DNA of 64,000 bases from Bacilli bacterium (lineage in GTDB: Bacteria; Bacillota_I; Bacilli_A; RFN20; CAG-826), in contig JAGBLL010000110.1 in NCBI GenBank assembly GCA_017635465.1, positions 4,908 through 68,907 on the forward strand, given 5' to 3'. Shown here piece by piece: positions 24,621 through 38,983 of this stretch. A model generated the notes under the pieces. The model was given only the letters and a program-made list of their open reading frames with translations, did no database searches and was not told the DNA's origin. A program made the position numbers and the translations under genes. Numbering within the stretch: position 1 is the stretch's first letter; every line of letters begins with the position of its first letter.

Positions 24621-24697
24621 GCGCTTGTAGCTCAGCTGGATAGAGCGCTTCCCTCCTAAGGAAGAAGTCGGGCGTTCAAATCGTCTCAAGCGCGCCA
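24621..24697 (+). tRNA. tRNA-Arg (anticodon CCU)
   Basis: Cloverleaf folded by hand. Acceptor GCGCTTG/CAAGCGC, anticodon stem CTTCC/GGAAG with loop CTCCTAA, encoded CCA. Confidence 0.9.
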
Positions 24698-24800: not shown

Positions 24801-24876
24801 GGGTCCGTAGCTCACCTGGGAGAGCGCCTCCATGGCATGGAGGAGGTAGCGAGTTCGATCCTCGTCGGATCCACCA
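24801..24876 (+). tRNA. tRNA-Ala (anticodon GGC)
   Basis: Acceptor GGGTCCG/CGGATCC with the G3:U70 identity pair. Anticodon loop ATGGCAT, encoded CCA. Confidence 0.9.
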
Positions 24877-24920: not shown

Positions 24921-24950
24921 AAAATCCTGAGTTGAATCAGGATTTTTTCT
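24921..24950. terminator. bidirectional terminator (TCCTGA/TCAGGA hairpin family)
   Basis: aaaatcctga-gttgaa-tcaggatttt. The right arm contains the stop codon of the minus-strand gene 24937..25416. Confidence 0.65.
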
Positions 24951-25416
24951 TTCTAGAAGATTGTTTGTAGTCGAGATATTTCAAAAACACTTCTTCAACA
25001 TCTGCGTCGCTTATCTCATAATCATCAGGCTTATGGCAAATCCACGCATAATACCAAGTGATGGCTCTAACAAATGAGTATATAACATCTTCAATGTTGC
25101 AATGTTCTGTTCTAACTGGCAAATATATTATAGGAAGCTTGTCTTGCTTATTAAAATTCGGATACTCATTAATACTTTCATAATGGAATAAATAATAAGC
25201 ATGTTTATGATTCCTTTGTAATAGAAAATGATTGTAACAAAAGTCCACCTGCAATTCTACAGGGATGGGATAGTTTACTTGAACCCATTTCATAAAAGCA
25301 CGAATCTCTCTTTTTGTTGATCGTGATATTCTTTCATCAAACCAACAATCAAAACCAGGCTTAATGCCTTTTCCGATGCTTAGTTTGACTTGTTTTGCTT
25401 CTTCCCAAACATTCAT
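24937..25416 (-). CDS. hypothetical protein (159 aa), first gene of the accessory block
   Basis: Clean ORF with no motif I can place. Trp/Tyr/His-rich soluble protein. Confidence 0.45.
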   Translation of the reverse strand: MNVWEEAKQVKLSIGKGIKPGFDCWFDERISRSTKREIRAFMKWVQVNYPIPVELQVDFCYNHFLLQRNHKHAYYLFHYESINEYPNFNKQDKLPIIYLPVRTEHCNIEDVIYSFVRAITWYYAWICHKPDDYEISDADVEEVFLKYLDYKQSSRKKKS

Positions 25417-25670: not shown

Positions 25671-25946
25671 ATGACACAAGCGTTACCAAAGGTACTACCA
25701 GTTAATGAACTTAAGAATACAGCCAATATAATGAAAACATGCCAAGAAAGCCCAGTTCCTATTGTTATTACTAGAAACGGTTATGGAGAAGCTGTCATGA
25801 TGAGCATTGCTCTTTATGAAGAATTGTTCGCTAAGGTTCAAGCAGCCACTTTAATCAATGAAGGAATTGATGAAATCGAAAAAGGCGCTAAAGGTATGGA
25901 CGGTGATGAATTCTTTAATCGCATGAACAAAAAGTATGGAAAGTAA
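25671..25946 (+). CDS. type II antitoxin, Phd/YefM family
   Basis: 91 aa with the PVPIVITRNGYGEAVMMS..YEEL pattern. Overlaps the toxin start by 11 nt. Confidence 0.8.
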   Translation: MTQALPKVLPVNELKNTANIMKTCQESPVPIVITRNGYGEAVMMSIALYEELFAKVQAATLINEGIDEIEKGAKGMDGDEFFNRMNKKYGK

Positions 25947-26247
25947 ATATACTTTAAATATTTATCCTTCTACACAACTAGATTTGGATAAAATCTTTGC
26001 TTACATTTATAACGATTTATCAAATCCAAAAGCTGCCATTGATTTAATTGATACTTTTCGTATATCTTTTAATAATCTACGTTATTTTCCTGAGAGCAAT
26101 CCATTAGTTAATAACGAATATGTAAAAGATAAGTCGCTGCGTAAGCTTCTTGTTAAAAACTACATTGCCTTTTATCGTATTAGAGGCTACGAAATTCAAA
26201 TCGTCAGAGTTCTTTATGGAATGAGCAATTATCAAATGCTTCTCTAG
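25936..26247 (+). CDS. type II toxin, RelE/ParE family
   Basis: 103 aa. ParE-like architecture (..FPESNP..., IAFYRI...I.IVRVLYG). Confidence 0.8.
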   Translation: MESKYTLNIYPSTQLDLDKIFAYIYNDLSNPKAAIDLIDTFRISFNNLRYFPESNPLVNNEYVKDKSLRKLLVKNYIAFYRIRGYEIQIVRVLYGMSNYQMLL

Positions 26248-26464
26248 CTATTGTTATACATTTATCAAACAATCAATCAAAGTTTAAAGACTGTATTTTC
26301 AAGGATCTATTAGTGATATTCAAAACTCATTAGTGGTAGATGTTTTCTTCTAAATAATATCTAAGGGATTTAAAAACTTAAGGTGCCAAAATGTAACCTT
26401 GGCCTGTGGCACTTCTGTGACAAATGCCATGTTAATATACAAGCAACAAAGGAGAACTTTGATA

Positions 26465-26746
26465 ATGAAAGAAGAACTATTAAAAGGTTTAACTAAAGAA
26501 CAAATCGAAAAAGTTAAAGCCTGTAAAAGCCAAGAAGAAATTTTAGATTTAGCAAGAAAAGAAGGCATTGAACTCACCGATGAACAATTAGAAGCGGCCA
26601 ATGGTGGTTTTTGTTCAGTTGATGAAACAAGATGCCCAAACTGTGGTAGTAAATATGTTAATAGACTTGGCGTTTATGATGGCTGGGCCTATGACTGTCG
26701 AGAATGCTATTATCATTGGATCGTCAAAACAAACACCGATAATTAA
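26465..26746 (+). CDS. Nif11-like double-glycine leader peptide with Cys-rich (Zn-ribbon-like) core
   Basis: SD aaaggag at 26449-26455, ATG at 26465. Leader MKEELLKGLTKEQIEKVKACKSQEEILDLARKEGIELTDEQLEAANGG. The 45-aa core carries CPNC...CREC plus one extra Cys. Confidence 0.7.
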   Translation: MKEELLKGLTKEQIEKVKACKSQEEILDLARKEGIELTDEQLEAANGGFCSVDETRCPNCGSKYVNRLGVYDGWAYDCRECYYHWIVKTNTDN

Positions 26747-26833: not shown

Positions 26834-26860
26834 AATCCTGAATAGCATCAGGATTTTTTT
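26834..26860 (+). terminator. intrinsic terminator (TCCTGA/TCAGGA hairpin family)
   Basis: aatcctga-atagca-tcaggatt followed by ttttt. Confidence 0.7.
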
Positions 26861-26921
26861 GTATAATTGTTCTAAGAAAAAATATTTTTATACATTTTTG
26901 ATTTTATAACCGTCTTTACTT

Positions 26922-29428: not shown

Positions 29429-30019
29429 GTGAATTTGAAAGTTTATTTACTGGATTATCGAGCCCTCCCTTTATCTTTTCTTATGGATTCTAAATATCTA
29501 TCAGAACTAGAAAAGATATCATTTCAAAAATATAAAAACGAAAACGTTAAAAAAGAAAAAATAGTGTCCGCTATTTTGAAAAATAAATATATTGGTGATT
29601 ACCATTTCAACGAATACGGTAAACCAATAAGCAATAATAAATATTTCAATATCAGCCATAGTGATGGTTATATTGCTTTAGTTATTGATCAAGTGCCTGT
29701 GGGCATTGATATTGAAAATATTAGAAATGCTGAAGAAGATTTAAGAAACTATATTTCTAATGACGAAGAAAAGAAATACATCCATGATGATGAATCTTTC
29801 TTTGAAGTATGGACTAATAAAGAAGCATTAGTAAAGGCTAATGGAAATGGTATTAATCAAAAGATTAAAACTATTCAATCATTACCACTTAACGCTATTA
29901 GAACATACAACAACAAAACATATTTTAATAAAACAATCAAATATCAGAATTTAGTCATCACTGTATCAAGGGCAAGTAGTGATGATTTTAATATTAATAT
30001 CATGGAGGAGTATATTTAA
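29429..30019 (+). CDS. Sfp-type 4'-phosphopantetheinyl transferase
   Basis: FNISHSDGY, GIDIE and W.NKEALVKA motifs. GTG (29429) or TTG (29435) start. Stop lies 1 nt before the NRPS ATG. Confidence 0.85.
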   Translation: MNLKVYLLDYRALPLSFLMDSKYLSELEKISFQKYKNENVKKEKIVSAILKNKYIGDYHFNEYGKPISNNKYFNISHSDGYIALVIDQVPVGIDIENIRNAEEDLRNYISNDEEKKYIHDDESFFEVWTNKEALVKANGNGINQKIKTIQSLPLNAIRTYNNKTYFNKTIKYQNLVITVSRASSDDFNINIMEEYI

Positions 30020-30020
30020 T

Positions 30021-33000
30021 ATGGTCAAAACATACCCTTTAAGTAAGAGTGAAGAAGGTATTTATATCTCTTCATTAGCGGGTGGCGACGCTTATAATCT
30101 CGCTCATTTAGTGTCATTAGGGAGAGACGTTACAAAAGAGCAAGTTGAAGCTGCTTTAAACAAAGTGGTGGAAGCCCATCCTTATATTTTTACTGTTCTT
30201 TCTAATGATGAAAACGGTAACGTTGTTAAAAGCATTAAACAACAAAAGATTGTTCTTGAATGTGAAGAAGTTAAAGAACTTAACATCGTTTCTAAACCAT
30301 ATCAATTATTGGATTCACCTTTATATCGCTTCAAACTTTATAAAGTGAAAGATGAATATGTTTTCTATTTTGATTTTTATCATCTCATCATGGATGGTAC
30401 ATCTATTAAAGTATTCATTGATGATTTCTTTTCTTCGCTTGAAGGTAAAAAATTAATCAAAGAACAAAGTGACGCGAATGAATATGCATTAAAGGAACAA
30501 AAAGATTTAGCGAAACCAATTTATCAAGAATGCAAAGACTACTATGAAAAACTAGTGGGCGATGTGGAAACTGATTCCTCCCTCGTCGAAGATAAAAAAG
30601 ACGAAACAGTTTCATATCAATCGTTCAAACAAAAATTATCAATTAAAAATAAACAGATTAAAGAAATCACTAATAAATTAGGCCTTAAAACATCTACTTA
30701 TTTCTTAGGTGCTTTCTCCTATTTATTAATGAAATTTAGCATGGATACTGCTTCTTTATTCTTAACAGTTAATAACGCTAGAACAAAAGAAGTAGCGAGA
30801 AGCTTTGGTAGCTTTGTTAAAACATATCCTTTATATGTTAATTTCGAAAATATCGATAATGTTCCTGACTTATTAAAATTGGTGAATGAAGAGAATATCG
30901 AAAACGTTAAACATAATACATATCCATATTCCTCATTAGTGAAAGACTTTGGTGTTTCTTCTGATGTCTTATTCGCTTATCAAGGTGACTATTTCTATAA
31001 TGGTTCATATAACGGCAAGCAAATTACTGTTGAACAACTTGATAGAAAAGATGGCAAAGAAAAACTCGCAATTGAATGTCACCGTTTAGGCGATGAATTC
31101 TTACTCTGGGTTGAATACCGCAGTGATATTTATTATGAAAGCACAATCCGTCATTTCATTAAGTTATTTGATATCGTCTTAAATGAATTCCTAGCGTTAG
31201 GAAAATTAGATGATATTAACTTTGTTAATAAAGAAGATTTAGAATTGATGGATTCTTTCAATATCACTGATCCTAAATATCTTGATACTTCAAAAACAAT
31301 ACTTGATGACTTTGAAGATTGCGTAAAGAAATTCCCAAATAATTACGCAGTTGTCTTTAAAGATAAAAAATACACATATAAAGAGGTGGATGAAATTACC
31401 ACAAGAATCGCTAATGAATTAATTAAGCATGGTGCGGGAAGAGAGAAAGTTGTCTCTATCTTAATTCATAAATCTGAATATGTTGTCCTCGCTTCTTTAG
31501 CGGTCATTAAATCTGGTTCTGCTTATCAACCACTTGATCCAACATATCCAGAAGATCGATTAAATTTCATGGTCAAAGACTCATCCGCGATTATCTTAAT
31601 TAGAGATGATGATTTAGGCGACCTAATCCATGAATTTAAAGGACATGAAATATTAACAAGTTCCTTATTATCTTTAAAAGATGATACCCCAATTAAAACT
31701 ATACCAGAATCTAAAGACTTATTCATTATGCTTTATACATCTGGCTCCACTGGTTTACCAAAAGGTGTCATGCTTGAACATGGCAATATCCATGCTTTCT
31801 GTATCTATCATAGAGAAATTCAAGAAATCGATGAAAATTCACATTGCAGTGCCTATGCTTCATATGGTTTTGACGCGGATATGATGGACTTATATCCCGC
31901 TTTAACAAGTGGTGCAACAGTTTATATCATTCCTGATGAAATGCGTTTAAACCTCGTTGAACTTGGTGAATATTTTAACGCTAATAACATCACTCACTCA
32001 TTTATTACTACCCAAGTCGGTAGACAATTCGCTAGTGAAATTGAATGTTCGTCACTCAAATATTTCGCTGTCGGTGGCGAAAAGCTCGTTCCAATTGAAC
32101 CTCCAAAAGGTTATAGATTCTTTAATATCTATGGTCCAACCGAAGGTACAGTTTATTGCACTAGCCAAGAAGTTGATAAATTATATTACCGTATTCCAAT
32201 TGGTAAACCGTTACCAACATACAAAATGTATGTTTTAGATAAGAATAAAAAGAGATTACCATTCTTATGTAATGGTGAACTCTATATCTCTGGTCCACAA
32301 GTGGCAAGAGGTTACTTAAATAGAGAAAAAGAAAATAAAGAAGCTTTCTTAACTAACCCATTCACCAAAGAAAAAGGCTACACCAATTTCTATAAAACAG
32401 GTGATATCGTGAGAATGCTTCCAGATGGCACAATTGACTTTATCGGCCGTAAAGATGGACAAGTCAAGATTAGAGGCTTCCGTATTGAATTATCAGAAGT
32501 CGAAGGTGTCATTAGAGAATTCCCTGGCATTAAAGACGCGACAATTAAGGATTTCACCGATCCAAGTGGTGTGAAATATATCGTTGCTTATATCGTTAGT
32601 GACAAACAAATCAATGTTGAAGAGCTAAATCAATATATCTTATCAAAGAAACCGCCTTATATGGTTCCTGCTTACACAATGCAAATTGATAAGATTCCAC
32701 TTAACCAAAACCAAAAAGTTAATAAACGCGCTTTACCACAAGTCGAACTTAAAGCGGAAGAAATCGTCCCACCAGAAGGTGAAGATGAACAAATTATCTT
32801 TGATATCTTAAAAGATGTTTTAGGTCATGACCAATTCGGTGTCACAAGTGATATTTATAACGTTGGTTTAACTTCCGTTTCTTCAATTAGATTTAGTATT
32901 CTCTTATCAAAGAAATTCAATAAACCTGTGGAAAACGAAGACCTAAAGTCACATCCAACAATCCGCTCCTTAGCGGCGTTCTTAAACGCTAAAGAAGGCG

Positions 33001-36000
33001 ACAAGGTATATGATTTACGTGAAGAATATCCAATTAGTAAGACACAAGAAGGTGTCTTCATTGAATGCGCTTCTAAAGCGGATTCCACAACTTATAACAT
33101 TCCATATTTATTTAAACTTGATAAACGCATCGACTTAAATAAATTAAAAGAAGCTTTAATCAAAGCGCTTGATAACCATCCATATCTCAAGACCACATTA
33201 AAGATGAATGAAGACGGCGATATTCTCGCTCTTAGAAAAGAAACAGAAAGTGTTGTCTCCATCATTAAAGAAGATATCGTTAAAGAGAAATTAATCCGTC
33301 CATTTAAACTATTGGATGCTCCTTTATATCGCATTGAAATATATGAAGGTAAAGATAATTATCTCTATTTAGATTTCCATCACATCATCTGTGACGGCAC
33401 TAGTGAAGCAATCTTCTTATCTGACTTAAACAAAGTGTTCAAAGGTGAACAATTAACTAAAGAAGAATTCACTGGCTTTGAAGTGGCTTTAAAAGAAAAA
33501 GAAGACTTACAAAGCGATAAACTTCCTAAAGCTAAAGAATATTATCACAAAGTGCTTAAGGACATCGATGGTGAATATATACCTAAAAAAGACTTAAAAG
33601 TCGCTAAAGAGCATAGACTCGCTTCTATCGATTACGCTTTGAAATTAGACAATAACAAAGTTAACGAATACGTTAAATCTAATAAACTCACTAATAATGC
33701 TTTATTTAACTTTGCATTTGGTTATACATTATCTAAATTCATTTATCGTAAAGATGCTTTATATGTGACTATTTATAATGGTCGAAAATCTTCTAAATTA
33801 TTTAATACCACATCGATGCTAGTTAAAACTTTCCCAGTTTATCTATCTTATGAAGAAGATGATGAAATCATTAAGAAAGTGAGCTTCATCAAAGATGAAT
33901 TAAGTGGCTTAGAAGAACATGATATCTATTCATTCGCGGATATCGTTAAAGATTATGATATATCCGCGGATGTAATGTTTGCCTATCAAGGTGATGATTT
34001 CTCATTCAAAGAAATCGGTGGTTATCCAGTCGAATCAATCTTGCTTGAAAGTGATACCACTAAAACACCATTTGGTTTAGATATCTTCCTAGAAGATGGT
34101 GTCTTTAGAGCCCACTATGAATACGATATCGCTATTTATAATGAGAATAGTATCGCTGCATTTAATAGATTATTTGAACTCGTTTTAAATGAAATCTTAG
34201 TTAAAAAGCAAATCAAAGACATCAATACTCTTCCAGAAGAAGATAAGAAATTATACGCCATCACAAACGATACTGACGTTGAAATTCCTAACGATGTTAC
34301 TGTAAATAAGATATTTGAAAAACAAGTCGAATTACATAAAGATAAAGTCGCAGTTATCGATGTCTGTAGCCAATTTACATATCAAGAATTAAATGCATTA
34401 GCAAACAAAGTAGCTCACACGTTAATCGATAATGGTGTGACTAAGAACCAAACAGTGGTGATGTTAATGCCTAGATTAAAAGAAGCTTATGCGGTGAGAC
34501 AAGGTATTGTTAAATCCGGTGGAGCCTTCTTACCAATCGATCCAAAATATCCAGATGAACGTGTTGGCTATATTATTGGAAATTCTCAAACTCAATACGT
34601 CATTACCACCAAGAAAGTCTTAGAAGAAAAAGAACAATTATTAAAAGACGCGAAAGTTAAAGTGTTCTTAATCGAAGATATCGCTAAATCAAATAAAGCG
34701 GACAATCCAAACGTTAAGATTAGTCAAAAAGATTTAGCGTATGTCATCTATACATCAGGTAGTACAGGCAAACCAAAAGGCGTGATGATTTCACACCGCA
34801 ATATCCTTAACTACGTTTTAGATGGCAACAATTTAACAACCGCTGAATATCGTTATATTGGGGAAGAATGTGTGAGTTGCTCATTTGCTTCATTATCATT
34901 CGATGCTTCTTTGCAAGAAGAATTCGTCCCATTAACTCATGGTTATACTGTTGTTATCGCTAGTGAAGAAGAAATTGAAAATCCATTACTTCTCGCTCAA
35001 ACACTCAAAAAGCATGGTGTAAATATCATGTTTATGACACCATCATTTGTCTCTAACTTATTAGATATTCCACAGTTCGTTGAAGCATTACGTAATTTCA
35101 AAGTCCTAGATATGGGCGCGGAAGCAGTGCCAATCGAATTATGTCAAAAACTTAGAGGTTTAGGCGTTAACGCTCAAATCAATAATGGGTATGGCCCAAC
35201 TGAAACAACAATTACATCAACATATAGTACTGTTAAAGATGAATACATGACCATTGGTCGACCAGTTGGTAACACTAAAGCTTATATCTTAGATAAAGCG
35301 GGTCATATTTTACCAATCAACGCTATTGGTGATTTAACTCTCGCTGGTGAATCTGTTGGTATGGGATATTTAGGTAATGAAGAAAAAACCAAACAAGTAT
35401 TCATTGAATTAAACGGTTTACGTGCCTATAGAACTGGTGACTTAGCAAGAATTAATGGCGATGGTAACATCGAATTCTTTGGTCGACTTGATAACCAAGT
35501 TAAATTAAGAGGTTTGCGTGTTGAACTTGATGAAATTGAAAAGGTTATCAACACCTATCCAGGCATGTCCACAAGTATCGTTATTGTGAAAAACGCCCCA
35601 GAAGGTGATTACTTAGTGGCCTATTTCGTTGCTAGCAAAGAAATTGATAAAGATGATTTAACCGCTCATATTTCTAAATCATTAACGCCATATATGATTC
35701 CAAAGGCGATGATGCAATTAGATAAATTACCGTTAACAGCGAATGGCAAAGTCGATAAGAAAAACTTGCCAGCCATTCAAGTTAACGAAACTAAAAAAGA
35801 AATCAAAGAAGCAAGTAACGAACTTGAAAAGAAACTCGTTGCCTTATTCCAAAAAGCATTAGCTAATCCAAATGTCGGTGTGGATGATGACTTCTTTGAA
35901 CTCGGTGGTACATCATTAAGTGTTTCTAAGATTGCGATGCTCGCATTAAATGAAAACTTACCGATCGCTTATGGTGATGTCTTTGAGTATCCAACTGTCT

Positions 36001-37238
36001 TACAACTTGAAGAACACATCAATTCTTTACAAGGTAATGCCAAAAAACAAGATGAAAAGAAAGAAGAATATGAATTCGCTTCACTTAAACATAACGTTGT
36101 GGAAGAAGTTGATGACATCAAGATTGATTTCGAATATAAGAAAGTCTTACTCGCTGGCGCTACTGGCTTCTTAGGTATCCACTTATTATATGAATTAATT
36201 CAACAAAAGAATCATGTCGTGGCCTTAGTTAGAGGTGGTAGCTTATCCGCTAAAGATCGCTTGTTAGCGATGTTAACATATTATTTTGATTCACCATTCG
36301 AAGAAGAAATTGAACAATATGTTGAAGTCGTTGACGCTGATGTCACTAATAATGATTTATATGAAAAATTAAAAGATTATGATTTCAATATCATCATTAA
36401 CTCCGCGGCGATTGTTAAACACTTCGCTAACGATGACATCATTGAAAGAGTGAATGTCGGTGGTGTGAAGAATCTCATCGAAATTGCTAAAGCAAAGAAA
36501 GCGAGAATTATTCAAATCTCAACACTTTCTGTCGCTGGTGAAAACATCGATAATAAGTTCCCATCTTCTTTCAAAATCAAAGAAAACATGCTCGACTTTG
36601 GTCAAGATGTCTCTAATAAATATGTCCATTCTAAATTCAACGGAGAAAAAGCTATCTTAGAAGCTATTGATAAGGATGGCGTGGACGCCAAGATCATCCG
36701 TGTTGGTAACTTAATGAGTAGACAAAGAGATGGTGAATTCCAGGCTAACTCCATTACTAACGGCTTTATGCGTGACTTAAAAGGTTATGTTACGCTCCAT
36801 GAATTCCCAGTTAATTCAATGGATGGCACAGTTGACTTCTCACCAATCGATGAAGTCGCTAAGACAATTATCTTGTTATCCAAGACACCAAGTAAATTTA
36901 CAGTCTTCCATTCCGCTAACTCACATATGGTGGAAATGGGTGATATTATCTATGTCTTAAACGAACTTGGCTTTGATATTAAAGTTGTCCCAGATAACGA
37001 ATTCCTTGAAGGTATGAAACGCATGATGATGGATGACACTAAGAGTATGCTTGTTTCTTCCTTAATTTCATATTCCAGTAGCGACATGCATACACATCAA
37101 TTTATTGGCTCTGATAATGAATTTACAAATAAAGCGTTGTATCATTTAGCGTATAAATGGCCAATTACTGACTATGAATATCTAAAGAACGCCATCATCT
37201 CACTTCAAACACTAGACTTCTTTGAAAGGAACGACTAA
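30021..37238 (+). CDS. bimodular nonribosomal peptide synthetase, C-A-T-C-A-T-R (terminal thioester reductase)
   Basis: Start at ATG 30021 with SD ggaggag at 30004-30010.
- C1: YHLIMDG (30378-30398).
- A1: YTSGSTGLPKG (31734-31766), NIYGPTE, GRKDGQVKIRGFRIEL.
- T1: GLTS, Ser codon 32873-32875.
- C2: HHIICDG (33378-33398).
- A2: YTSGSTGKPKG (34749-34781), NGYGPTE, GRLDNQVKLRGLRVEL.
- T2: GGTS, Ser codon 35913-35915.
- R: GATGFLG (36156-36176) and YVHSK (36621-36635). Confidence 0.95.
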   Translation: MVKTYPLSKSEEGIYISSLAGGDAYNLAHLVSLGRDVTKEQVEAALNKVVEAHPYIFTVLSNDENGNVVKSIKQQKIVLECEEVKELNIVSKPYQLLDSPLYRFKLYKVKDEYVFYFDFYHLIMDGTSIKVFIDDFFSSLEGKKLIKEQSDANEYALKEQKDLAKPIYQECKDYYEKLVGDVETDSSLVEDKKDETVSYQSFKQKLSIKNKQIKEITNKLGLKTSTYFLGAFSYLLMKFSMDTASLFLTVNNARTKEVARSFGSFVKTYPLYVNFENIDNVPDLLKLVNEENIENVKHNTYPYSSLVKDFGVSSDVLFAYQGDYFYNGSYNGKQITVEQLDRKDGKEKLAIECHRLGDEFLLWVEYRSDIYYESTIRHFIKLFDIVLNEFLALGKLDDINFVNKEDLELMDSFNITDPKYLDTSKTILDDFEDCVKKFPNNYAVVFKDKKYTYKEVDEITTRIANELIKHGAGREKVVSILIHKSEYVVLASLAVIKSGSAYQPLDPTYPEDRLNFMVKDSSAIILIRDDDLGDLIHEFKGHEILTSSLLSLKDDTPIKTIPESKDLFIMLYTSGSTGLPKGVMLEHGNIHAFCIYHREIQEIDENSHCSAYASYGFDADMMDLYPALTSGATVYIIPDEMRLNLVELGEYFNANNITHSFITTQVGRQFASEIECSSLKYFAVGGEKLVPIEPPKGYRFFNIYGPTEGTVYCTSQEVDKLYYRIPIGKPLPTYKMYVLDKNKKRLPFLCNGELYISGPQVARGYLNREKENKEAFLTNPFTKEKGYTNFYKTGDIVRMLPDGTIDFIGRKDGQVKIRGFRIELSEVEGVIREFPGIKDATIKDFTDPSGVKYIVAYIVSDKQINVEELNQYILSKKPPYMVPAYTMQIDKIPLNQNQKVNKRALPQVELKAEEIVPPEGEDEQIIFDILKDVLGHDQFGVTSDIYNVGLTSVSSIRFSILLSKKFNKPVENEDLKSHPTIRSLAAFLNAKEGDKVYDLREEYPISKTQEGVFIECASKADSTTYNIPYLFKLDKRIDLNKLKEALIKALDNHPYLKTTLKMNEDGDILALRKETESVVSIIKEDIVKEKLIRPFKLLDAPLYRIEIYEGKDNYLYLDFHHIICDGTSEAIFLSDLNKVFKGEQLTKEEFTGFEVALKEKEDLQSDKLPKAKEYYHKVLKDIDGEYIPKKDLKVAKEHRLASIDYALKLDNNKVNEYVKSNKLTNNALFNFAFGYTLSKFIYRKDALYVTIYNGRKSSKLFNTTSMLVKTFPVYLSYEEDDEIIKKVSFIKDELSGLEEHDIYSFADIVKDYDISADVMFAYQGDDFSFKEIGGYPVESILLESDTTKTPFGLDIFLEDGVFRAHYEYDIAIYNENSIAAFNRLFELVLNEILVKKQIKDINTLPEEDKKLYAITNDTDVEIPNDVTVNKIFEKQVELHKDKVAVIDVCSQFTYQELNALANKVAHTLIDNGVTKNQTVVMLMPRLKEAYAVRQGIVKSGGAFLPIDPKYPDERVGYIIGNSQTQYVITTKKVLEEKEQLLKDAKVKVFLIEDIAKSNKADNPNVKISQKDLAYVIYTSGSTGKPKGVMISHRNILNYVLDGNNLTTAEYRYIGEECVSCSFASLSFDASLQEEFVPLTHGYTVVIASEEEIENPLLLAQTLKKHGVNIMFMTPSFVSNLLDIPQFVEALRNFKVLDMGAEAVPIELCQKLRGLGVNAQINNGYGPTETTITSTYSTVKDEYMTIGRPVGNTKAYILDKAGHILPINAIGDLTLAGESVGMGYLGNEEKTKQVFIELNGLRAYRTGDLARINGDGNIEFFGRLDNQVKLRGLRVELDEIEKVINTYPGMSTSIVIVKNAPEGDYLVAYFVASKEIDKDDLTAHISKSLTPYMIPKAMMQLDKLPLTANGKVDKKNLPAIQVNETKKEIKEASNELEKKLVALFQKALANPNVGVDDDFFELGGTSLSVSKIAMLALNENLPIAYGDVFEYPTVLQLEEHINSLQGNAKKQDEKKEEYEFASLKHNVVEEVDDIKIDFEYKKVLLAGATGFLGIHLLYELIQQKNHVVALVRGGSLSAKDRLLAMLTYYFDSPFEEEIEQYVEVVDADVTNNDLYEKLKDYDFNIIINSAAIVKHFANDDIIERVNVGGVKNLIEIAKAKKARIIQISTLSVAGENIDNKFPSSFKIKENMLDFGQDVSNKYVHSKFNGEKAILEAIDKDGVDAKIIRVGNLMSRQRDGEFQANSITNGFMRDLKGYVTLHEFPVNSMDGTVDFSPIDEVAKTIILLSKTPSKFTVFHSANSHMVEMGDIIYVLNELGFDIKVVPDNEFLEGMKRMMMDDTKSMLVSSLISYSSSDMHTHQFIGSDNEFTNKALYHLAYKWPITDYEYLKNAIISLQTLDFFERND

Positions 37239-37240
37239 TT

Positions 37241-38983
37241 GTGGAGAGAAATAGTAAACTAGTTAACCGTAAATTCATTCATTATCTCATTCCGTCGATA
37301 TTGATGATTTTTGCGATGCAATTTTCTTCCTTACTTGATGGTATCTTAATTGGTAACTTGATTTCTGGCGAAGCTCTTGCGGCGACATCTTTAGTTATGC
37401 CAGTACTATATATCGTCCAAGCTCCTGGTTTTGCTTTAGGAGTAGGGGGATCAATTGTCGTTGCTAATAAATTAGGTAAAAGAGATATCGAAGGGGCAAA
37501 AAAGACGTTCTCTATATCAATTATTTTAGGTGTTGGAATATCTATATTATTTGCCGCGATATCATTCTTTGTTTCCGCACCATTAGCAAAGCTATTTGGT
37601 GAAGCATCATATGAATTATCTTATCCATATATCTATATGTATTTATTGACCGATCCAATTATTACTTTAGCTTTGCTTCTTGGTTCCTTTATGGCGGTTG
37701 ATAATAACCCAAAATTATCATCAATATTCTTTATTATTTCTAATGTCGCGAAAGTCGGCTTAGAGTTCATCTTTATTAAATTATTTAATTGGGGAATGTA
37801 TGGCGCCGCTTTATCTACCGGAGCGGGTTTCGTCGTCGCGTTTGTCGCTTTACCTTTCTACATTAAAAACGATAAGCGCATGCTTGGCTTAACTTTCAAG
37901 GTTAAAGGCACGAAGATATTTGAAATTATTAAATCTTCATCAACATCAGGTTTGAATCTTATTTTAACCGCGATTCAAATGCTGATTGTTAATATCTTTT
38001 TAGGCAAGTTAGTCACTAATCCAGTCGACTTATTAGCCTTTGGTTTAATCGCTAATATTGTCTTCGTCTTTGACTTATTCTGTGGTGGTATCTTAAATGT
38101 TATTCCTAATATTGTGGGTATCTTTTATGGTGAAAAAGATTATTATTCACTGAGATCAGTTACTAGAAAAATATTCTGGATTAATATTATTGTGGCCGCG
38201 GTTATTACCGCAGTTATCGCTGCCTTACCAAATGTCTATTCATTTATCTTTGGCTATACTGAACAAACAGATATGAGTTATATTGCACTCTTAATTAGAA
38301 TCTATCTCATCTCATTATTACCATCAGAAATTAGTAAATTCTCGATGAATTACTATCCATCCATTGATAAGAATCTACCTTCTTTAATTACTGTTTTCTT
38401 AAGAGAAGCTGTCTTAGTGTTGCCATTAACACTAGTGTTATTATTCACTAATGGTGTTTTAGGTTATTGCACTGCCTACGCTATTACGGAAGTAGCGACA
38501 GTCTTAATTACTTATATATTTATCCTTATATACAATAAAAAGAAAAATACATATTCCATCTTCATGTTTGAAAGAGGAGATGTTGAATCTTTCGATACTT
38601 CTTTAGATAACAACATTAATAATGCTTCTATTGTTTCTGAACAACTCACTAACTACGCTCGTAGTATTGGTGTGGCGGAAAGAGAAAGCCAAATCGTTGG
38701 TCTAGCCGCAGAAGAAATAGTGGGTAATATCATCACATATGGTTATAAGCATAAACATAAAAACTATATCGATATTTCATTAAGGAAAATTAACGATGTT
38801 CTCTTATTAAGAATTAGAGATGATGGTATGCCATTTGACCCAACTAAATATGAATTTGATAATGATGAGAATTATTCCACAAGTGGCATACAGTTAATTA
38901 ATAAATTAACTGATAAGATGACTTATATGCGTGTATTAAGTCTTAATAACACGATATTTGAAATCAATATCAGGGGGAACTAG
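37241..38983 (+). CDS. MATE-family efflux transporter fused to a C-terminal SpoIIAB/RsbW-like GHKL ATPase domain
   Basis: GTG start 2 nt after the NRPS stop. About 440 aa with 12 TM helices (MATE-like). From about 38575 the tail has an N-box EEIVGNIITYGY, a G1-like RDDGMPFDP and a G2-like SGIQLI. Confidence 0.78.
   Translation: MERNSKLVNRKFIHYLIPSILMIFAMQFSSLLDGILIGNLISGEALAATSLVMPVLYIVQAPGFALGVGGSIVVANKLGKRDIEGAKKTFSISIILGVGISILFAAISFFVSAPLAKLFGEASYELSYPYIYMYLLTDPIITLALLLGSFMAVDNNPKLSSIFFIISNVAKVGLEFIFIKLFNWGMYGAALSTGAGFVVAFVALPFYIKNDKRMLGLTFKVKGTKIFEIIKSSSTSGLNLILTAIQMLIVNIFLGKLVTNPVDLLAFGLIANIVFVFDLFCGGILNVIPNIVGIFYGEKDYYSLRSVTRKIFWINIIVAAVITAVIAALPNVYSFIFGYTEQTDMSYIALLIRIYLISLLPSEISKFSMNYYPSIDKNLPSLITVFLREAVLVLPLTLVLLFTNGVLGYCTAYAITEVATVLITYIFILIYNKKKNTYSIFMFERGDVESFDTSLDNNINNASIVSEQLTNYARSIGVAERESQIVGLAAEEIVGNIITYGYKHKHKNYIDISLRKINDVLLLRIRDDGMPFDPTKYEFDNDENYSTSGIQLINKLTDKMTYMRVLSLNNTIFEINIRGN

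What the first reader, a model, noticed from the sequence alone, without database searches (positions are those of the whole stretch)
26465..26746. Orphan Nif11-type double-glycine leader peptide carrying a Zn-ribbon-like 45-aa core
The 48-aa N-terminus is a textbook Nif11-like leader ending in the GG cleavage motif: helical KEQIEKVKACKSQEEILDLARKEGIELTDEQLEAANGG. The core FCSVDETRCPNCGSKYVNRLGVYDGWAYDCRECYYHWIVKTNTDN contains CxxC-N17-CxxC plus a fifth Cys. That resembles a folded zinc ribbon more than a typical lanthipeptide or sactipeptide core. No C39-peptidase ABC exporter or tailoring enzyme lies in the window. The next transcription unit is a sigma factor with a large-ectodomain membrane partner, followed by an NRPS operon. 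It may be a secreted mini-protein, bacteriocin or signal.
Basis: partly seen in the sequence, partly recalled or inferred. Interest (0 to 1): 0.65.

Follow-up and report, generated by a model that had tools for sequence, protein, structure and literature searches.

The report
Scattered zinc-ribbon peptide precursor with Nif11-type leader
This small gene is one of many scattered copies of a secreted-peptide precursor family in rumen bacteria: an almost invariant 48-residue export leader ending in Gly-Gly is joined to a hypervariable zinc-ribbon-like mini-protein, and the export and modification genes lie elsewhere in the genome, so it only looks like an orphan.

Summary
Window 26465-26746 (+) encodes a 93-aa protein with an RBS and its own terminator. 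It differs from its RUG12224 ortholog at 10 synonymous and 2 non-synonymous codons.

- **Leader.** Nif11 models are the top hits but fall below their curated cut-offs for this sequence. Family evidence is strong. All 224 unique relatives in 85 sequences have a 48-aa leader ending in GG.
- **Core.** 215 of 224 cores keep CPxCG-N13-30-(Y/F)xCxxCGxxW, and all have a Cys 0-4 residues after GG. The rest of the core is hypervariable. AlphaFold2 gives a confident three-stranded zinc-ribbon fold.
- **Cassette.** Related rumen MAGs encode an NHLP/Nif11-type C39-peptidase ABC exporter, a second ABC protein, a small membrane protein, usually an unclassified SkfB-like radical-SAM/SPASM enzyme, and STAS/RsbW/SpoIIE regulators. 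A lone relative lies about 90 kb from such a cassette on one contig.
- **Regulation.** Scattered copies share an 18-bp 7-4-7 direct repeat at a fixed position upstream.
- **Open point.** No cassette was found for the window's own species; one locus holds an exporter relic.

Best reading: a dispersed member of a prochlorosin-like precursor regulon, cleaved after GG and exported. I rate it a new variant of a known kind.

The parts
26405..26422 (+). 18-bp element TGTGGCA-CTTC-TGTGACA: two 7-bp direct repeats with 11-bp periodicity. Putative activator site replacing the -35 region.
   Evidence: It is conserved upstream of scattered precursor genes in many MAGs (alignment A3). It is the only exact match in the 64-kb window. 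There are about 140 exact matches in 53 of 89 loci, almost all on the precursor strand and ending 42 nt before the ATG.
26430..26438 (+). Extended -10-like element TGtTAATAT, 10 nt downstream of the repeat element. No -35 hexamer is present.
   Evidence: TGnTAAnAT is conserved in alignment A3. The consensus sigma-70 scan found no -35/-10 pair on this strand.
26448..26456 (+). Ribosome-binding site AAAGGAGAA, 8 nt before the ATG.
   Evidence: Read from the sequence. ACAAAGGAGAAC is conserved across paralogs.
26465..26608 (+). Leader peptide, residues 1-48, Nif11/N11P-type, ending in G47-G48.
   Evidence: The leader is exactly 48 aa and ends in GG in all 224 unique relatives. It is nearly invariant in alignments A1 and A2. 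Nif11 models are the top hits.
26609..26743 (+). Core peptide, residues 49-93. It has an N-proximal Cys50, knuckle 1 C57-P-N-C60-G-S, and knuckle 2 Y-D-C78-R-E-C81-Y-Y-H-W. Predicted zinc-ribbon mini-protein.
   Evidence: Family motif statistics. AF2 core-only model: mean pLDDT 81.2, three strands. Foldseek superposition on aIF2beta and TFIIS zinc ribbons. Core identity to relatives is only 15-40%.
26744..26746 (+). Stop codon TAA.
26834..26862 (+). Intrinsic terminator: 8-bp stem, 6-nt loop and a T-run. This makes the gene a monocistronic unit.
   Evidence: It is conserved in RUG12224.
37241..38983 (+). MatE-HATPase_c_2 (MATE transporter fused to an RsbW-like kinase) gene. Possible remnant of the cassette's regulatory neighbourhood. 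The association is tentative.
   Evidence: Pfam domains. It is 63% identical over 522 aa to the fusion gene that lies directly upstream of STAS-SpoIIE-HK-RR-cassette in L091-L093. In the window a lipoprotein gene and glycoside hydrolase genes follow it instead.

Best explanation
The gene encodes a precursor peptide of a large, previously unnamed family found in rumen and gut Firmicutes.

**Shown here**
- A 48-residue Nif11-type leader is nearly invariant across hundreds of paralogs. It is followed by a hypervariable core of about 45 residues that keeps a zinc-ribbon frame plus one Cys just after the GG.
- Genomes carry many such genes, alone or in tandem arrays.
- In related genomes a single cassette encodes a C39-peptidase ABC exporter with its catalytic Cys motif, a second ABC protein, a 130-aa membrane protein, usually an SkfB-like radical-SAM/SPASM enzyme, a HipA-like protein and STAS/RsbW/SpoIIE regulators.
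- The scattered genes share a position-locked 7-4-7 direct-repeat promoter element.

**Inferred**
- The window peptide is transcribed from this activator-dependent promoter as part of a regulon.
- Its leader is cut after G48 by the PCAT during export.
- The 45-residue core then folds outside the cell as a four-Cys metal-bound ribbon, which would be stable in the reducing rumen.
- The maturase, where present, probably acts on the N-proximal Cys that ribbon cores and short single-Cys cores have in common, most likely forming a thioether.
- The conserved short-core peptide next to the maturase may be the inducing signal sensed by the cassette-linked histidine kinase and response regulator.
- The hypervariable ribbon peptides are then the effectors, bacteriocin-like or binding proteins.
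For: - **Family and leader/core pattern:**
- **Nif11 relationship:**, and the motif in PMC2887384.
- **Cassette with precursors** in L001, L013, L020, L042, L067 and L089-L093.
- **Exporter identity:**. The C39 catalytic motif QLEALECGAASL...HFVV is visible.
- **A lone relative and the cassette on one contig:** P0005 (72% identical) and the cassette lie on one 202.8-kb contig about 90 kb apart.
- **Synteny:** in RGIG9687 a 76%-identical ortholog sits downstream of ligA-galE and directly upstream of the HK-RR pair and more precursors.
- **Zinc-ribbon fold:**
- **Maturase:** its nearest solved relative is SkfB. It is highly conserved and unnamed, with 1,805 hits.
- **Short single-Cys cores abutting the rSAM gene:**
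- **Shared promoter element:**
- **Purifying selection on the window gene:**
Against: - This sequence does not reach the curated cut-off of either Nif11 model.
- No PCAT or rSAM gene lies in the window. None lies within 10 kb of the five precursor loci fetched from the conspecific MAG RUG12224.
- One RUG12224 locus carries only a 39-codon relic of the ABC2 gene.
- The window keeps the MatE-HATPase gene but not the cassette that follows it in L091. The species may therefore have lost at least one cassette.
- Zinc binding, cleavage, export and the rSAM chemistry are all untested.
- Foldseek E-values are weak, none at or below 1e-3, because the domain is short.
- One cassette (L067) has no rSAM gene at the usual position, so modification of ribbon cores may not occur at all.
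- The response regulator's output domain could not be classified.
Confidence: 0.68

Rival explanations
1. The core is a sactipeptide or ranthipeptide substrate. The CxxC cysteines are thioether donors for the rSAM/SPASM enzyme, and the resemblance to a zinc ribbon is incidental.
For: An rSAM/SPASM enzyme whose best solved relative is the sactisynthase SkfB (E 2.3e-10) is operonic with precursors in at least 8 loci. The cores are Cys-rich, with 5-6 Cys. From my own knowledge, ruminococcin C shows that double-hairpin sactipeptides with 2+2 Cys exist in gut Firmicutes.
Against: Conservation extends beyond the Cys residues to the full knuckle signature (CPxCG, an aromatic residue two before Cys3, and Trp four after Cys4) within otherwise hypervariable cores. 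A thioether donor would not require this. AF2 is confident of a ribbon fold. The L067 cassette has ribbon precursors and the exporter but no rSAM gene. Short cores with a single Cys lie immediately upstream of the rSAM gene, which points to the N-proximal Cys as the shared target. The enzyme fits no curated sacti- or ranthipeptide maturase model (StsB 79 vs 625 bits; PapB 64.7 vs 340).
Confidence: 0.17
2. In this particular species the gene is a stranded relic. The export and maturation cassette has been lost, so the peptide is made but not processed, or is on its way to decay.
For: No cassette lies in the window or in the five RUG12224 loci. An ABC2 C-terminal relic with upstream stop codons lies next to a precursor in L024. 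The window retains the cassette-linked MatE-HATPase gene, but unrelated genes follow it. In the relative RGIG9687 the orthologous precursor is directly followed by the cassette's HK-RR front end.
Against: About 15-19 intact precursor ORFs keep the invariant leader, RBS and promoter element in RUG12224. The window gene shows 10 synonymous against 2 non-synonymous differences from RUG12224. This is not expected for unselected genes. Only about 85 kb of an incomplete MAG was examined. Cassettes can lie about 90 kb from lone copies.
Confidence: 0.12
3. It is an intracellular small zinc-ribbon protein with an N-terminal Nif11-like helical domain. It is never cleaved or exported and acts, for example, as a regulator or nucleic-acid binder.
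For: Small cytoplasmic zinc-ribbon proteins are common. The core weakly hits HVO_2901, IS1595, TFIIB and Lar-type zinc-ribbon models. No exporter lies nearby in the window.
Against: The conservation pattern is the reverse of what a functional binding domain would show. The N-terminal 48 residues and the GG are invariant, while the ribbon surface and loop lengths (13-30 residues) are hypervariable. There are tens of paralogs per genome in tandem arrays next to a C39-peptidase exporter. The same leader is fused to unrelated short cores. The GG linker is predicted to be disordered.
Confidence: 0.04
4. It is an unmodified class II-type bacteriocin whose four cysteines form two disulfides after export. 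There is no metal and no rSAM modification.
For: It has a GG leader and a PCAT context. The L067 cassette lacks the rSAM gene. From my own knowledge, many class II bacteriocins are disulfide-stabilised.
Against: The hosts are strict anaerobes of the reducing rumen, where disulfides are unfavourable (inference). The CPxCG knuckle geometry places the paired cysteines for metal ligation. No thiol-disulfide oxidoreductase genes appeared in the gene tables of the cassettes.
Confidence: 0.1

Closest known systems
Nif11-derived precursor peptides (N11P, TIGR03798) and prochlorosins (ProcA/ProcM) with the NHLP/Nif11 export triad TIGR03794/03796/03797 (Haft, Basu & Mitchell 2010, PMC2887384)
   Same: The helical Nif11-like leader ends in ...EL(S/T)DE(E/Q)LEAVxGG. 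The leader is conserved and the core hypervariable. Paralogous families are large and many copies lie far from the processing genes. The exporter pair is nearly the same: a peptidase-containing ABC1 plus a peptidase-less ABC2, both scoring just under the curated cut-offs.
   Different: The leader is 48 aa rather than about 69, and most members score below the curated TIGR03798 cut-off. The core is a roughly 45-aa zinc-ribbon frame, not a Cys/Ser/Thr-rich lanthipeptide or TOMM substrate. No LanM or cyclodehydratase appears in the gene tables; an rSAM/SPASM enzyme is present instead. The HlyD component is reduced to a 130-aa membrane protein. The hosts are rumen Erysipelotrichaceae, unclassified Bacilli and Lachnospiraceae, not cyanobacteria.
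Sactipeptides and their rSAM/SPASM synthases (SkfA/SkfB; subtilosin AlbA; ruminococcin C)
   Same: An rSAM/SPASM enzyme with about 90 extra N-terminal residues is encoded next to Cys-containing precursors. SkfB is the best solved match. Several precursor genes accompany one enzyme, as in the rumC locus (own knowledge).
   Different: The enzyme meets no curated sactisynthase or ranthipeptide model. The precursors have a Nif11 leader and a GG site. The cores keep a complete zinc-knuckle signature. The chemistry is unknown.
Class II bacteriocin regulons with three-component regulation (pln, spp and blp loci: induction peptide, histidine kinase, response regulator; direct repeats in all regulon promoters)
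   Same: There are GG-leader peptides and one PCAT. A small conserved peptide with the same leader sits beside HK-RR genes. A direct-repeat element is shared by all precursor promoters and by the cassette operon.
   Different: The repeats are 7-4-7 with 11-bp periodicity and abut the -10 region, as in pho-box or SARP promoters (own knowledge). They are not the 9-bp repeats spaced about 21 bp apart that LytTR regulators use. The regulator's output domain is unclassified. Additional STAS/RsbW/SpoIIE partner-switching genes are present. No immunity gene was identified.
Small stand-alone zinc-ribbon proteins (aIF2beta and TFIIS C-terminal ribbons, ZifS 8yoz, HVO_2901, Lar)
   Same: There are two CPxCG-type knuckles and a three-stranded sheet. 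The predicted core superposes at 0.6-2.1 A over 31-34 alignment columns.
   Different: Those proteins are cytoplasmic and their surfaces are conserved. Here the ribbon is fused to a cleavable export leader and its surface and loop lengths are hypervariable.

Membership tests
Nif11-like leader peptide family (TIGR03798 / Pfam PF07862) | Score at or above the curated model cut-off | tested here: not met
   TIGR03798 scores 21.5 bits against a cut-off of 32.3. PF07862 scores 19.4 against 23.8. Both are nevertheless the top hits. 106 of 114 relatives match PF07862 at E<=0.01 and 90 of 114 match TIGR03798 at E<=1e-3. Some relatives carry a precomputed PF07862 hit.
Nif11-like leader peptide family (TIGR03798 / Pfam PF07862) | Leader ends in motif 2, ELSDEELEAVAGG, with a Gly-Gly cleavage site | tested here: met
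   The window has ELTDEQLEAANGG (9 of 13 identical). The family consensus is ELTDEQLEAVSGG (10 of 13). GG ends the leader in 224 of 224 relatives. The motif is taken from PMC2887384.
Nif11-like leader peptide family (TIGR03798 / Pfam PF07862) | Large paralogous families with a conserved leader and variable core, and copies distant from the processing genes | tested here: met
   Up to 13 copies lie within 20 kb, and about 15-19 copies lie in five loci of RUG12224. Core identity is 15-40% while whole-protein identity is 52-60% because the leader is nearly invariant. A lone copy lies about 90 kb from the cassette.
Nif11-like leader peptide family (TIGR03798 / Pfam PF07862) | Co-occurrence with the export triad TIGR03794/03796/03797 | tested here: inconclusive
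   In relatives' cassettes ABC1 scores 819.5 bits against 853.3 and ABC2 scores 655 against 709.4. Both are best hits but just under the cut-offs. The HlyD-like member is only a 130-aa protein with an E 7e-4 match to its N-terminus. None of the three was found in the window or in the fetched loci of the same species.
Nif11-like leader peptide family (TIGR03798 / Pfam PF07862) | Proteolytic removal of the leader at GG during export | not testable with these tools
   The C39 catalytic Cys and His motifs are present in the relatives' PCAT (sequence). Cleavage itself needs an experiment.
Zinc ribbon (rubredoxin-like knuckle fold) | Two CxxC knuckles (typically CPxCG) separated by a beta-hairpin, with flanking aromatic residues | tested here: met
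   The window has C57-P-N-C60-G-S, 17 residues, then Y-D-C78-R-E-C81-Y-Y-H-W. In the family Pro follows Cys1 in 192 of 215, Gly follows Cys2 in 166 of 215, Tyr or Phe lies two before Cys3 in 131 of 213, and Trp or Phe lies four after Cys4 in 189 of 213.
Zinc ribbon (rubredoxin-like knuckle fold) | Three-stranded antiparallel sheet fold similar to solved zinc ribbons | tested here: met
   The AF2 core-only model has mean pLDDT 81.2, about 89-90 for residues 11-40, with strands at 17-22, 25-30 and 36-40. Top Foldseek hits are zinc ribbons, with TMq up to 0.65 and rmsd 0.6-1.3 A, but no E-value is at or below 1e-3. This is a prediction only.
Zinc ribbon (rubredoxin-like knuckle fold) | Score above the curated cut-off of a zinc-ribbon HMM | tested here: not met
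   All zinc-ribbon hits of the window peptide are sub-threshold, for example Zn_ribbon_3 13 bits vs 27 and HVO_2901 19.6 vs 80. Relatives hit IS1595 (31), Zn_ribbon_8 (23) and TFIIB (19) ribbons at E<=0.01.
Zinc ribbon (rubredoxin-like knuckle fold) | Stoichiometric Zn(II) binding by the four cysteines | not testable with these tools
   This needs metal analysis of the peptide.
Sactipeptide / ranthipeptide | rSAM/SPASM maturase encoded with the precursor | tested here: inconclusive
   It is present next to precursors in relatives (L001, L013, L020, L042, L089, L091-L093). It is absent from the window, from the fetched loci of the same species, and from the L067 cassette.
Sactipeptide / ranthipeptide | Maturase belongs to a curated thioether-synthase family | tested here: not met
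   StsB scores 79 bits vs 625, PapB 64.7 vs 340, and nif11-class maturase 3 scores 63.3 vs 725. The best overall hit is AhbD at 100.7 vs 500. The best PDB hit is SkfB at E 2.3e-10.
Sactipeptide / ranthipeptide | Cys-to-carbon thioether cross-links in the product | not testable with these tools
   This needs mass spectrometry or NMR of the modified peptide.
Class II bacteriocin with pheromone-controlled regulon | Induction peptide plus histidine kinase plus response regulator, and shared repeat elements in the regulon promoters | tested here: inconclusive
   HK (PF06580) and RR genes precede the cassette in L091-L093 and L008. A conserved short-core peptide lies beside the rSAM gene. The shared 7-4-7 repeat is shown. 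No link between the regulator and the repeat has been shown, and the output domain is unclassified.
Class II bacteriocin with pheromone-controlled regulon | Antimicrobial activity and a cognate immunity gene | not tested
   No immunity candidate was identified. Activity needs an assay.

The most novel reading that the evidence does not exclude
These bacteria secrete a library of hypervariable, metal-stabilised zinc-ribbon mini-proteins through a RiPP-type leader and PCAT route. This would be the first leader-peptide and bacteriocin system whose cargo is a folded zinc-ribbon scaffold. In this reading a new rSAM/SPASM family touches only the N-proximal Cys. A conserved short co-encoded peptide acts as the pheromone that switches on a genome-wide regulon through a 7-4-7 repeat promoter.
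Probability: 0.35. Interest if true: 0.8.

Novelty: new variant of a known kind. Interest (0 to 1): 0.65.

Why it matters
If correct, this extends the prochlorosin principle (one processing machine, many hypervariable substrates scattered over the genome) from marine cyanobacteria to rumen Firmicutes. The scaffold is different, a zinc ribbon, and so is the enzyme, an unclassified rSAM/SPASM family with 1,805 hits that is highly conserved.

It offers a natural, evolvable mini-protein scaffold with a portable 48-residue export and recognition leader, which is of interest for peptide engineering. It also gives a candidate set of antagonistic or signalling molecules in the rumen microbiome.

For annotation, hundreds of unnamed 85-100-aa ORFs, a maturase family and a promoter element can now be linked. 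It also shows that an 'orphan' precursor should be judged at genome scale.

Tried and rejected
- **Adjacent sigma factor as regulator.** I considered the ECF sigma factor and 613-aa membrane protein as the peptide's regulatory partners and rejected this. The pair accompanies the precursor only in the conspecific L006 and not in the orthologous loci L003, L007 or L008. The shared promoter element is not ECF-like.
- **Sigma-54 promoter.** The element contains TGGCAC, but the -12 position reads TGAC rather than TTGC in most copies. Both halves vary in the same way (TGTGRCA), which fits a direct-repeat protein site better (my own reading).
- **Known RNA element in the 5' region.** Rejected. The only hits are preQ1-II at 24.6 bits vs 47 and a snoRNA at 16.5 vs 36.
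- **Finding the cassette of the window's own species.** This failed. The single genome-collection scan kept only the 80 best precursor loci. Look-ups of NCBI-sourced maturase homologs led to other MAGs. The window itself comes from metagenome contigs.
- **Response regulator output domain.** Classification was inconclusive.
- **Literature.** Six full-text searches found no description of the system.
- **Scripts.** The Python machine was lost. The planned statistics on the first-Cys motif, cassette synteny and dN/dS were therefore replaced by reading alignments and ORF lists.
- **Antisense ORFs.** The ORF opposite the leader (26350-26601, -) recurs in all loci only because the leader DNA is conserved. 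I do not consider it a gene.
Full report
**1. The observation**

Window 26465-26746 (+) is a 93-codon ORF that starts with ATG. An AAAGGAGAA Shine-Dalgarno sequence lies 8 nt upstream. An intrinsic terminator follows at 26834-26855 plus a T-run; 1 was found against 0.1 expected in shuffles. The leader is M1-G48 and ends in ELTDEQLEAANGG. The 45-residue core has C50, then C57-P-N-C60, 17 residues, and C78-R-E-C81.

The gene is not a chance ORF.
- 508 proteins match at E<=0.01, and nearly all are 85-100 aa and cover the full length.
- An exhaustive HMMER search of 1.84 billion representatives finds 1,019 clusters at E<=1e-3 and 142 at E<=1e-10.
- The 98%-identical ortholog in rumen MAG RUG12224 differs at 10 synonymous but only 2 non-synonymous codons.
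- Identical protein is encoded on at least 8 rumen metagenome contigs.

**2. Leader**

For this single sequence the Nif11 models are the best hits but below their curated cut-offs: TIGR03798 at 21.5 vs 32.3 bits and PF07862 at 19.4 vs 23.8. Family-level evidence is much stronger.
- In 224 unique relatives extracted from 85 sequences, the leader is exactly 48 residues and ends in GG in every one.
- Alignments A1 and A2 show near-invariance of M1, L5, L6, K7, G8, L9, Q13, K16, C20, E25, E33, L37, E40, Q41, G47 and G48.
- 106 of 114 members hit PF07862 and 90 of 114 hit TIGR03798.
- The C-terminal leader motif matches motif 2 of the Nif11-derived peptides, ELSDEELEAVAGG, as defined by Haft et al. 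2010 (PMC2887384).

**3. Core**

After the GG the sequences become hypervariable. Core identity to the window peptide is 15-40% for most relatives, while whole-protein identity stays at 52-60%. Three features remain fixed.
- 215 of 224 cores keep CxxC-N13-30-CxxC.
- The full knuckle signature is conserved: C-P-x-C-G-S, then (Y/F)-x-C-x-x-C-G-x-x-W.
- An additional Cys lies 0-4 residues after the GG in all 224.

Different members independently hit many zinc-ribbon HMMs, including IS1595, Zn_ribbon_8, TFIIB, Lar and PaaD.

In the AlphaFold2 model of the whole precursor, the core has pLDDT of about 71-87 and three strands. The GG linker (residues 41-52) is below pLDDT 50 and the helical leader has low confidence. 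The core alone gives mean pLDDT 81.2, and about 89-90 for residues 11-40. Foldseek against the PDB returns almost only zinc ribbons at the top: aIF2beta with TMq 0.65 and rmsd 1.3 A over 34 columns, TFIIS with 0.6 A over 31 columns, and also Rpb9/C11, Elf1 and ZifS. E-values are weak, as expected for 45 residues. Metal binding itself is untested.

**4. Where the processing genes are**

The window has no PCAT, rSAM or other RiPP enzyme. Relatives show a recurrent cassette.

L001 contains, in one direction:
- an rSAM/SPASM gene
- six tandem precursors
- a 130-aa membrane protein
- a C39-peptidase ABC transporter
- a second ABC transporter
- STAS, RsbW-like HATPase_c_2 and STAS-APH genes

Three more precursors lie convergent to these. 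The same core cassette occurs in L013, L020, L042, L067, L089 and L091-L093. In L090 the rSAM gene lies about 6 kb from p131-PCAT.

The two transporters are best matched by the NHLP/Nif11-specific exporter models, just under their cut-offs: TIGR03796 at 819.5 vs 853.3 bits and TIGR03797 at 655 vs 709.4. The peptidase domain retains its catalytic motif...QLEALECGAASL...HFVV.

The rSAM/SPASM enzyme is 464 aa, with about 90 residues ahead of the CxxxCxxC motif. It fits no curated maturase family (best hit 100.7 bits vs a cut-off of 500). Its best solved relative is the sactisynthase SkfB (E 2.3e-10). It forms a tight unnamed family, with 1,805 hits and the top 120 at 77-95% identity over the full length.

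**5. 'Orphan' status**

The family is dispersed. The genome-collection scan confirmed 273 coding stretches. The 79 loci kept come from ruminant-gut MAGs labelled Erysipelotrichaceae, Bacilli or Bacillales, Lachnospiraceae and Pseudobutyrivibrio. Individual 20-kb loci hold up to 13 copies. RUG12224, which is the window's species, has about 15-19 copies in five loci. In RUG12224 the precursor is 98% identical to the window's, the sigma factor 96% and the 613-aa protein 92%.

Two results show that lone copies belong to the system.
- P0005 (72% identical to the window peptide) lies alone behind rpsF-ssb-rpsR at about 176 kb of a 202.8-kb contig. The full cassette lies at about 74-95 kb on the same contig.
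- In RGIG9687 the 76%-identical ortholog sits, as in the window, downstream of ligA-galE. There it is directly followed by a LytS-type histidine kinase, a response regulator and further precursors. That is the arrangement which precedes the cassette in L091-L093.

For the window's own species the cassette was not found.
- None of the five RUG12224 loci has it.
- L024 carries a 39-codon relic of the ABC2 C-terminus (67% identical, with stop codons upstream) right behind a precursor.
- The window keeps a MatE-HATPase_c_2 gene that is 63% identical to the one flanking the cassette in L091. A lipoprotein gene and glycoside hydrolase genes follow it.

At least one cassette has therefore decayed in this lineage. 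Whether another survives elsewhere could not be determined. The intact, selected state of many precursors argues that one does.

**6. A shared promoter element**

Aligning the 130 nt upstream of 19 scattered precursor genes revealed a conserved architecture:
- TGTGGCA-Cttt-TGTGACA, two 7-bp direct repeats with 11-bp periodicity
- 10 nt of spacer
- an extended -10, TGnTAAnAT
- ACAAAGGAGAAC followed by the ATG

In the window the element is at 26405-26422. It is the only exact match in 64 kb. Across the fetched loci there are about 140 exact matches in 53 loci, almost all on the precursor strand and typically ending 42 nt before the ATG. The element also precedes the HipA-like/rSAM operon in L020, p132-PCAT in L067, and a Lipase_3 gene in L004. 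Lachnospiraceae loci lack it.

No sigma-70 -35 hexamer is present. From my own knowledge, repeats that replace the -35 region 10 bp from the -10 are the layout of pho-box and SARP promoters bound by OmpR-type winged-helix activators. The cassette-linked response regulator aligns with OmpR/PhoB-family proteins into their DNA-binding domains, but its C-terminal domain alone matches nothing. The link between regulator and repeat is therefore only a hypothesis.

**7. A second, short core class**

The same leader is also fused to short cores. These have one Cys at position 2-3, a hydrophilic spacer, and a conserved tail, either ...(H/R)RK(I/L)(E/D)x or ...P(I/V)(N/S)NPF. One such gene lies immediately upstream of the rSAM gene in L013, L089 and L091-L093. 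In L067 it lies beside the HipA-like gene.

The N-proximal x-C-(S/T/G) is the only core feature shared by both classes. I therefore infer that this Cys, not the four knuckle cysteines, is the maturase's target. The conserved short peptide is a candidate inducing signal. Both points are inferences.

**8. Mechanism proposed**

Steps supported by sequence evidence:
- The gene is an activator-dependent monocistronic unit.
- It encodes a Nif11-type GG leader joined to a zinc-ribbon-type core.
- Relatives have a dedicated peptidase-exporter cassette and a candidate maturase.

Inferred steps:
- The PCAT cleaves after G48 during export.
- The core folds around a metal ion outside the cell.
- The rSAM enzyme may form a thioether at Cys50.
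- The product acts as a hypervariable antagonistic or binding peptide.
- Expression is controlled by a pheromone-like short peptide through HK-RR and partner-switching proteins.

Rivals are listed separately with their refutation tests: sactipeptide-type use of all cysteines, a relic in a cassette-less species, an intracellular zinc-ribbon protein, and a disulfide-stabilised class II bacteriocin.

**9. Comparison and novelty**

The system works like the N11P/prochlorosin paradigm and uses a near-identical exporter. It differs in four ways: a shorter leader, a zinc-ribbon core, an unclassified rSAM/SPASM enzyme instead of LanM or a cyclodehydratase, and its regulation. Six full-text searches found no description of it. 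NCBIfam has no specific model for the precursor or the maturase. I rate it a new variant of a known kind, with interest 0.65.

Noticed in passing
window 26405-26422; for example L009 8448-8465, L025 (10 sites), L020 16594-16611, L067 11803-11820, L004 14780-14797: An 18-bp 7-4-7 direct-repeat element (TGTGRCA-N4-TGTGRCA) is position-locked upstream of scattered precursor genes. It also precedes the cassette operon and a Lipase_3 gene, which suggests a regulon. It is absent from the Lachnospiraceae loci.
   Followed up: partly
L013 9709-9900; L089 9792-9986; L091 7801-7998; L067 10291-10509; L004 5522-5716 and 6077-6265; L007 4690-4890; P0334, P0293, P0342, P0349, P0274, P0354, P0380: A second class of precursors has the same leader and a short core. 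The core has a single Cys, a hydrophilic spacer and a conserved tail (HRKIEx or PINNPF). It often lies directly upstream of the rSAM gene and may be an induction peptide or the primary rSAM substrate.
   Followed up: partly
L024 3065-3181 (RUG12224, the window's species): A non-coding relic of the C-terminus of the ABC2 exporter gene (RILVMDDGKFVEDGTYDELIAKGRYFAELVERQRLDKEKI*) lies just downstream of an intact precursor gene, with stop codons upstream. This is evidence of cassette decay in this lineage.
   Followed up: partly
window 37241-38983: A MATE transporter fused to an RsbW-like HATPase_c_2 domain is 63% identical to the gene flanking the STAS-SpoIIE-HK-RR-cassette region in L091-L093. 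In the window it follows the NRPS gene and is followed by unrelated genes. A transporter fused to an anti-sigma-type kinase is unusual.
   Followed up: partly
L067 9953-14504 (RUG14536): This cassette has a ribbon precursor, a short precursor, the HipA-like gene, p132, PCAT and ABC2, but no rSAM gene at the usual position. The maturase may therefore be dispensable for export, or may be encoded elsewhere.
   Followed up: no
L013 8440-9639; L020 16637-17809; L067 10598-11791; L089 8520-9716; L091 6257-7420: A conserved 387-399-aa protein with only a weak HipA_C-like kinase signature (E about 2e-3) always precedes the short precursor, the rSAM gene or p130. Its role in the system is unknown.
   Followed up: no
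window 24621-24697, 24801-24876, 24937-25416 (-), 25671-26247: tRNA-Arg(CCT) and tRNA-Ala(GGC) are followed by a 159-aa hypothetical gene and a Phd/ParE toxin-antitoxin pair, directly upstream of the precursor. In the relative RGIG9687 the precursor follows galE and a hydrolase gene without these, so this may be a small insertion next to the tRNAs.
   Followed up: no
window 29429-37238: A PPTase gene is followed by a 2,419-aa two-module NRPS. Its C-terminus reads like a thioester-reductase domain (GATGFLG...; my own reading, not scanned). The unit is flanked by the ECF sigma and 613-aa membrane protein pair.
   Followed up: no
window 26350-26601 (-), and the equivalent antisense ORFs in L001, L007, L008 and L013: A 70-110-aa ORF antisense to the leader (…SSCSSVSSMPSSLA…) recurs in every locus. 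It is a by-product of the conserved leader DNA and its composition, and is not an independent gene.
   Followed up: no
L004 8626-9888; L005 1578-2840: A CobW/COG0523-type metallochaperone GTPase gene lies immediately upstream of one ribbon precursor (P0051). This could be chance, or a hint of a link to zinc handling.
   Followed up: no
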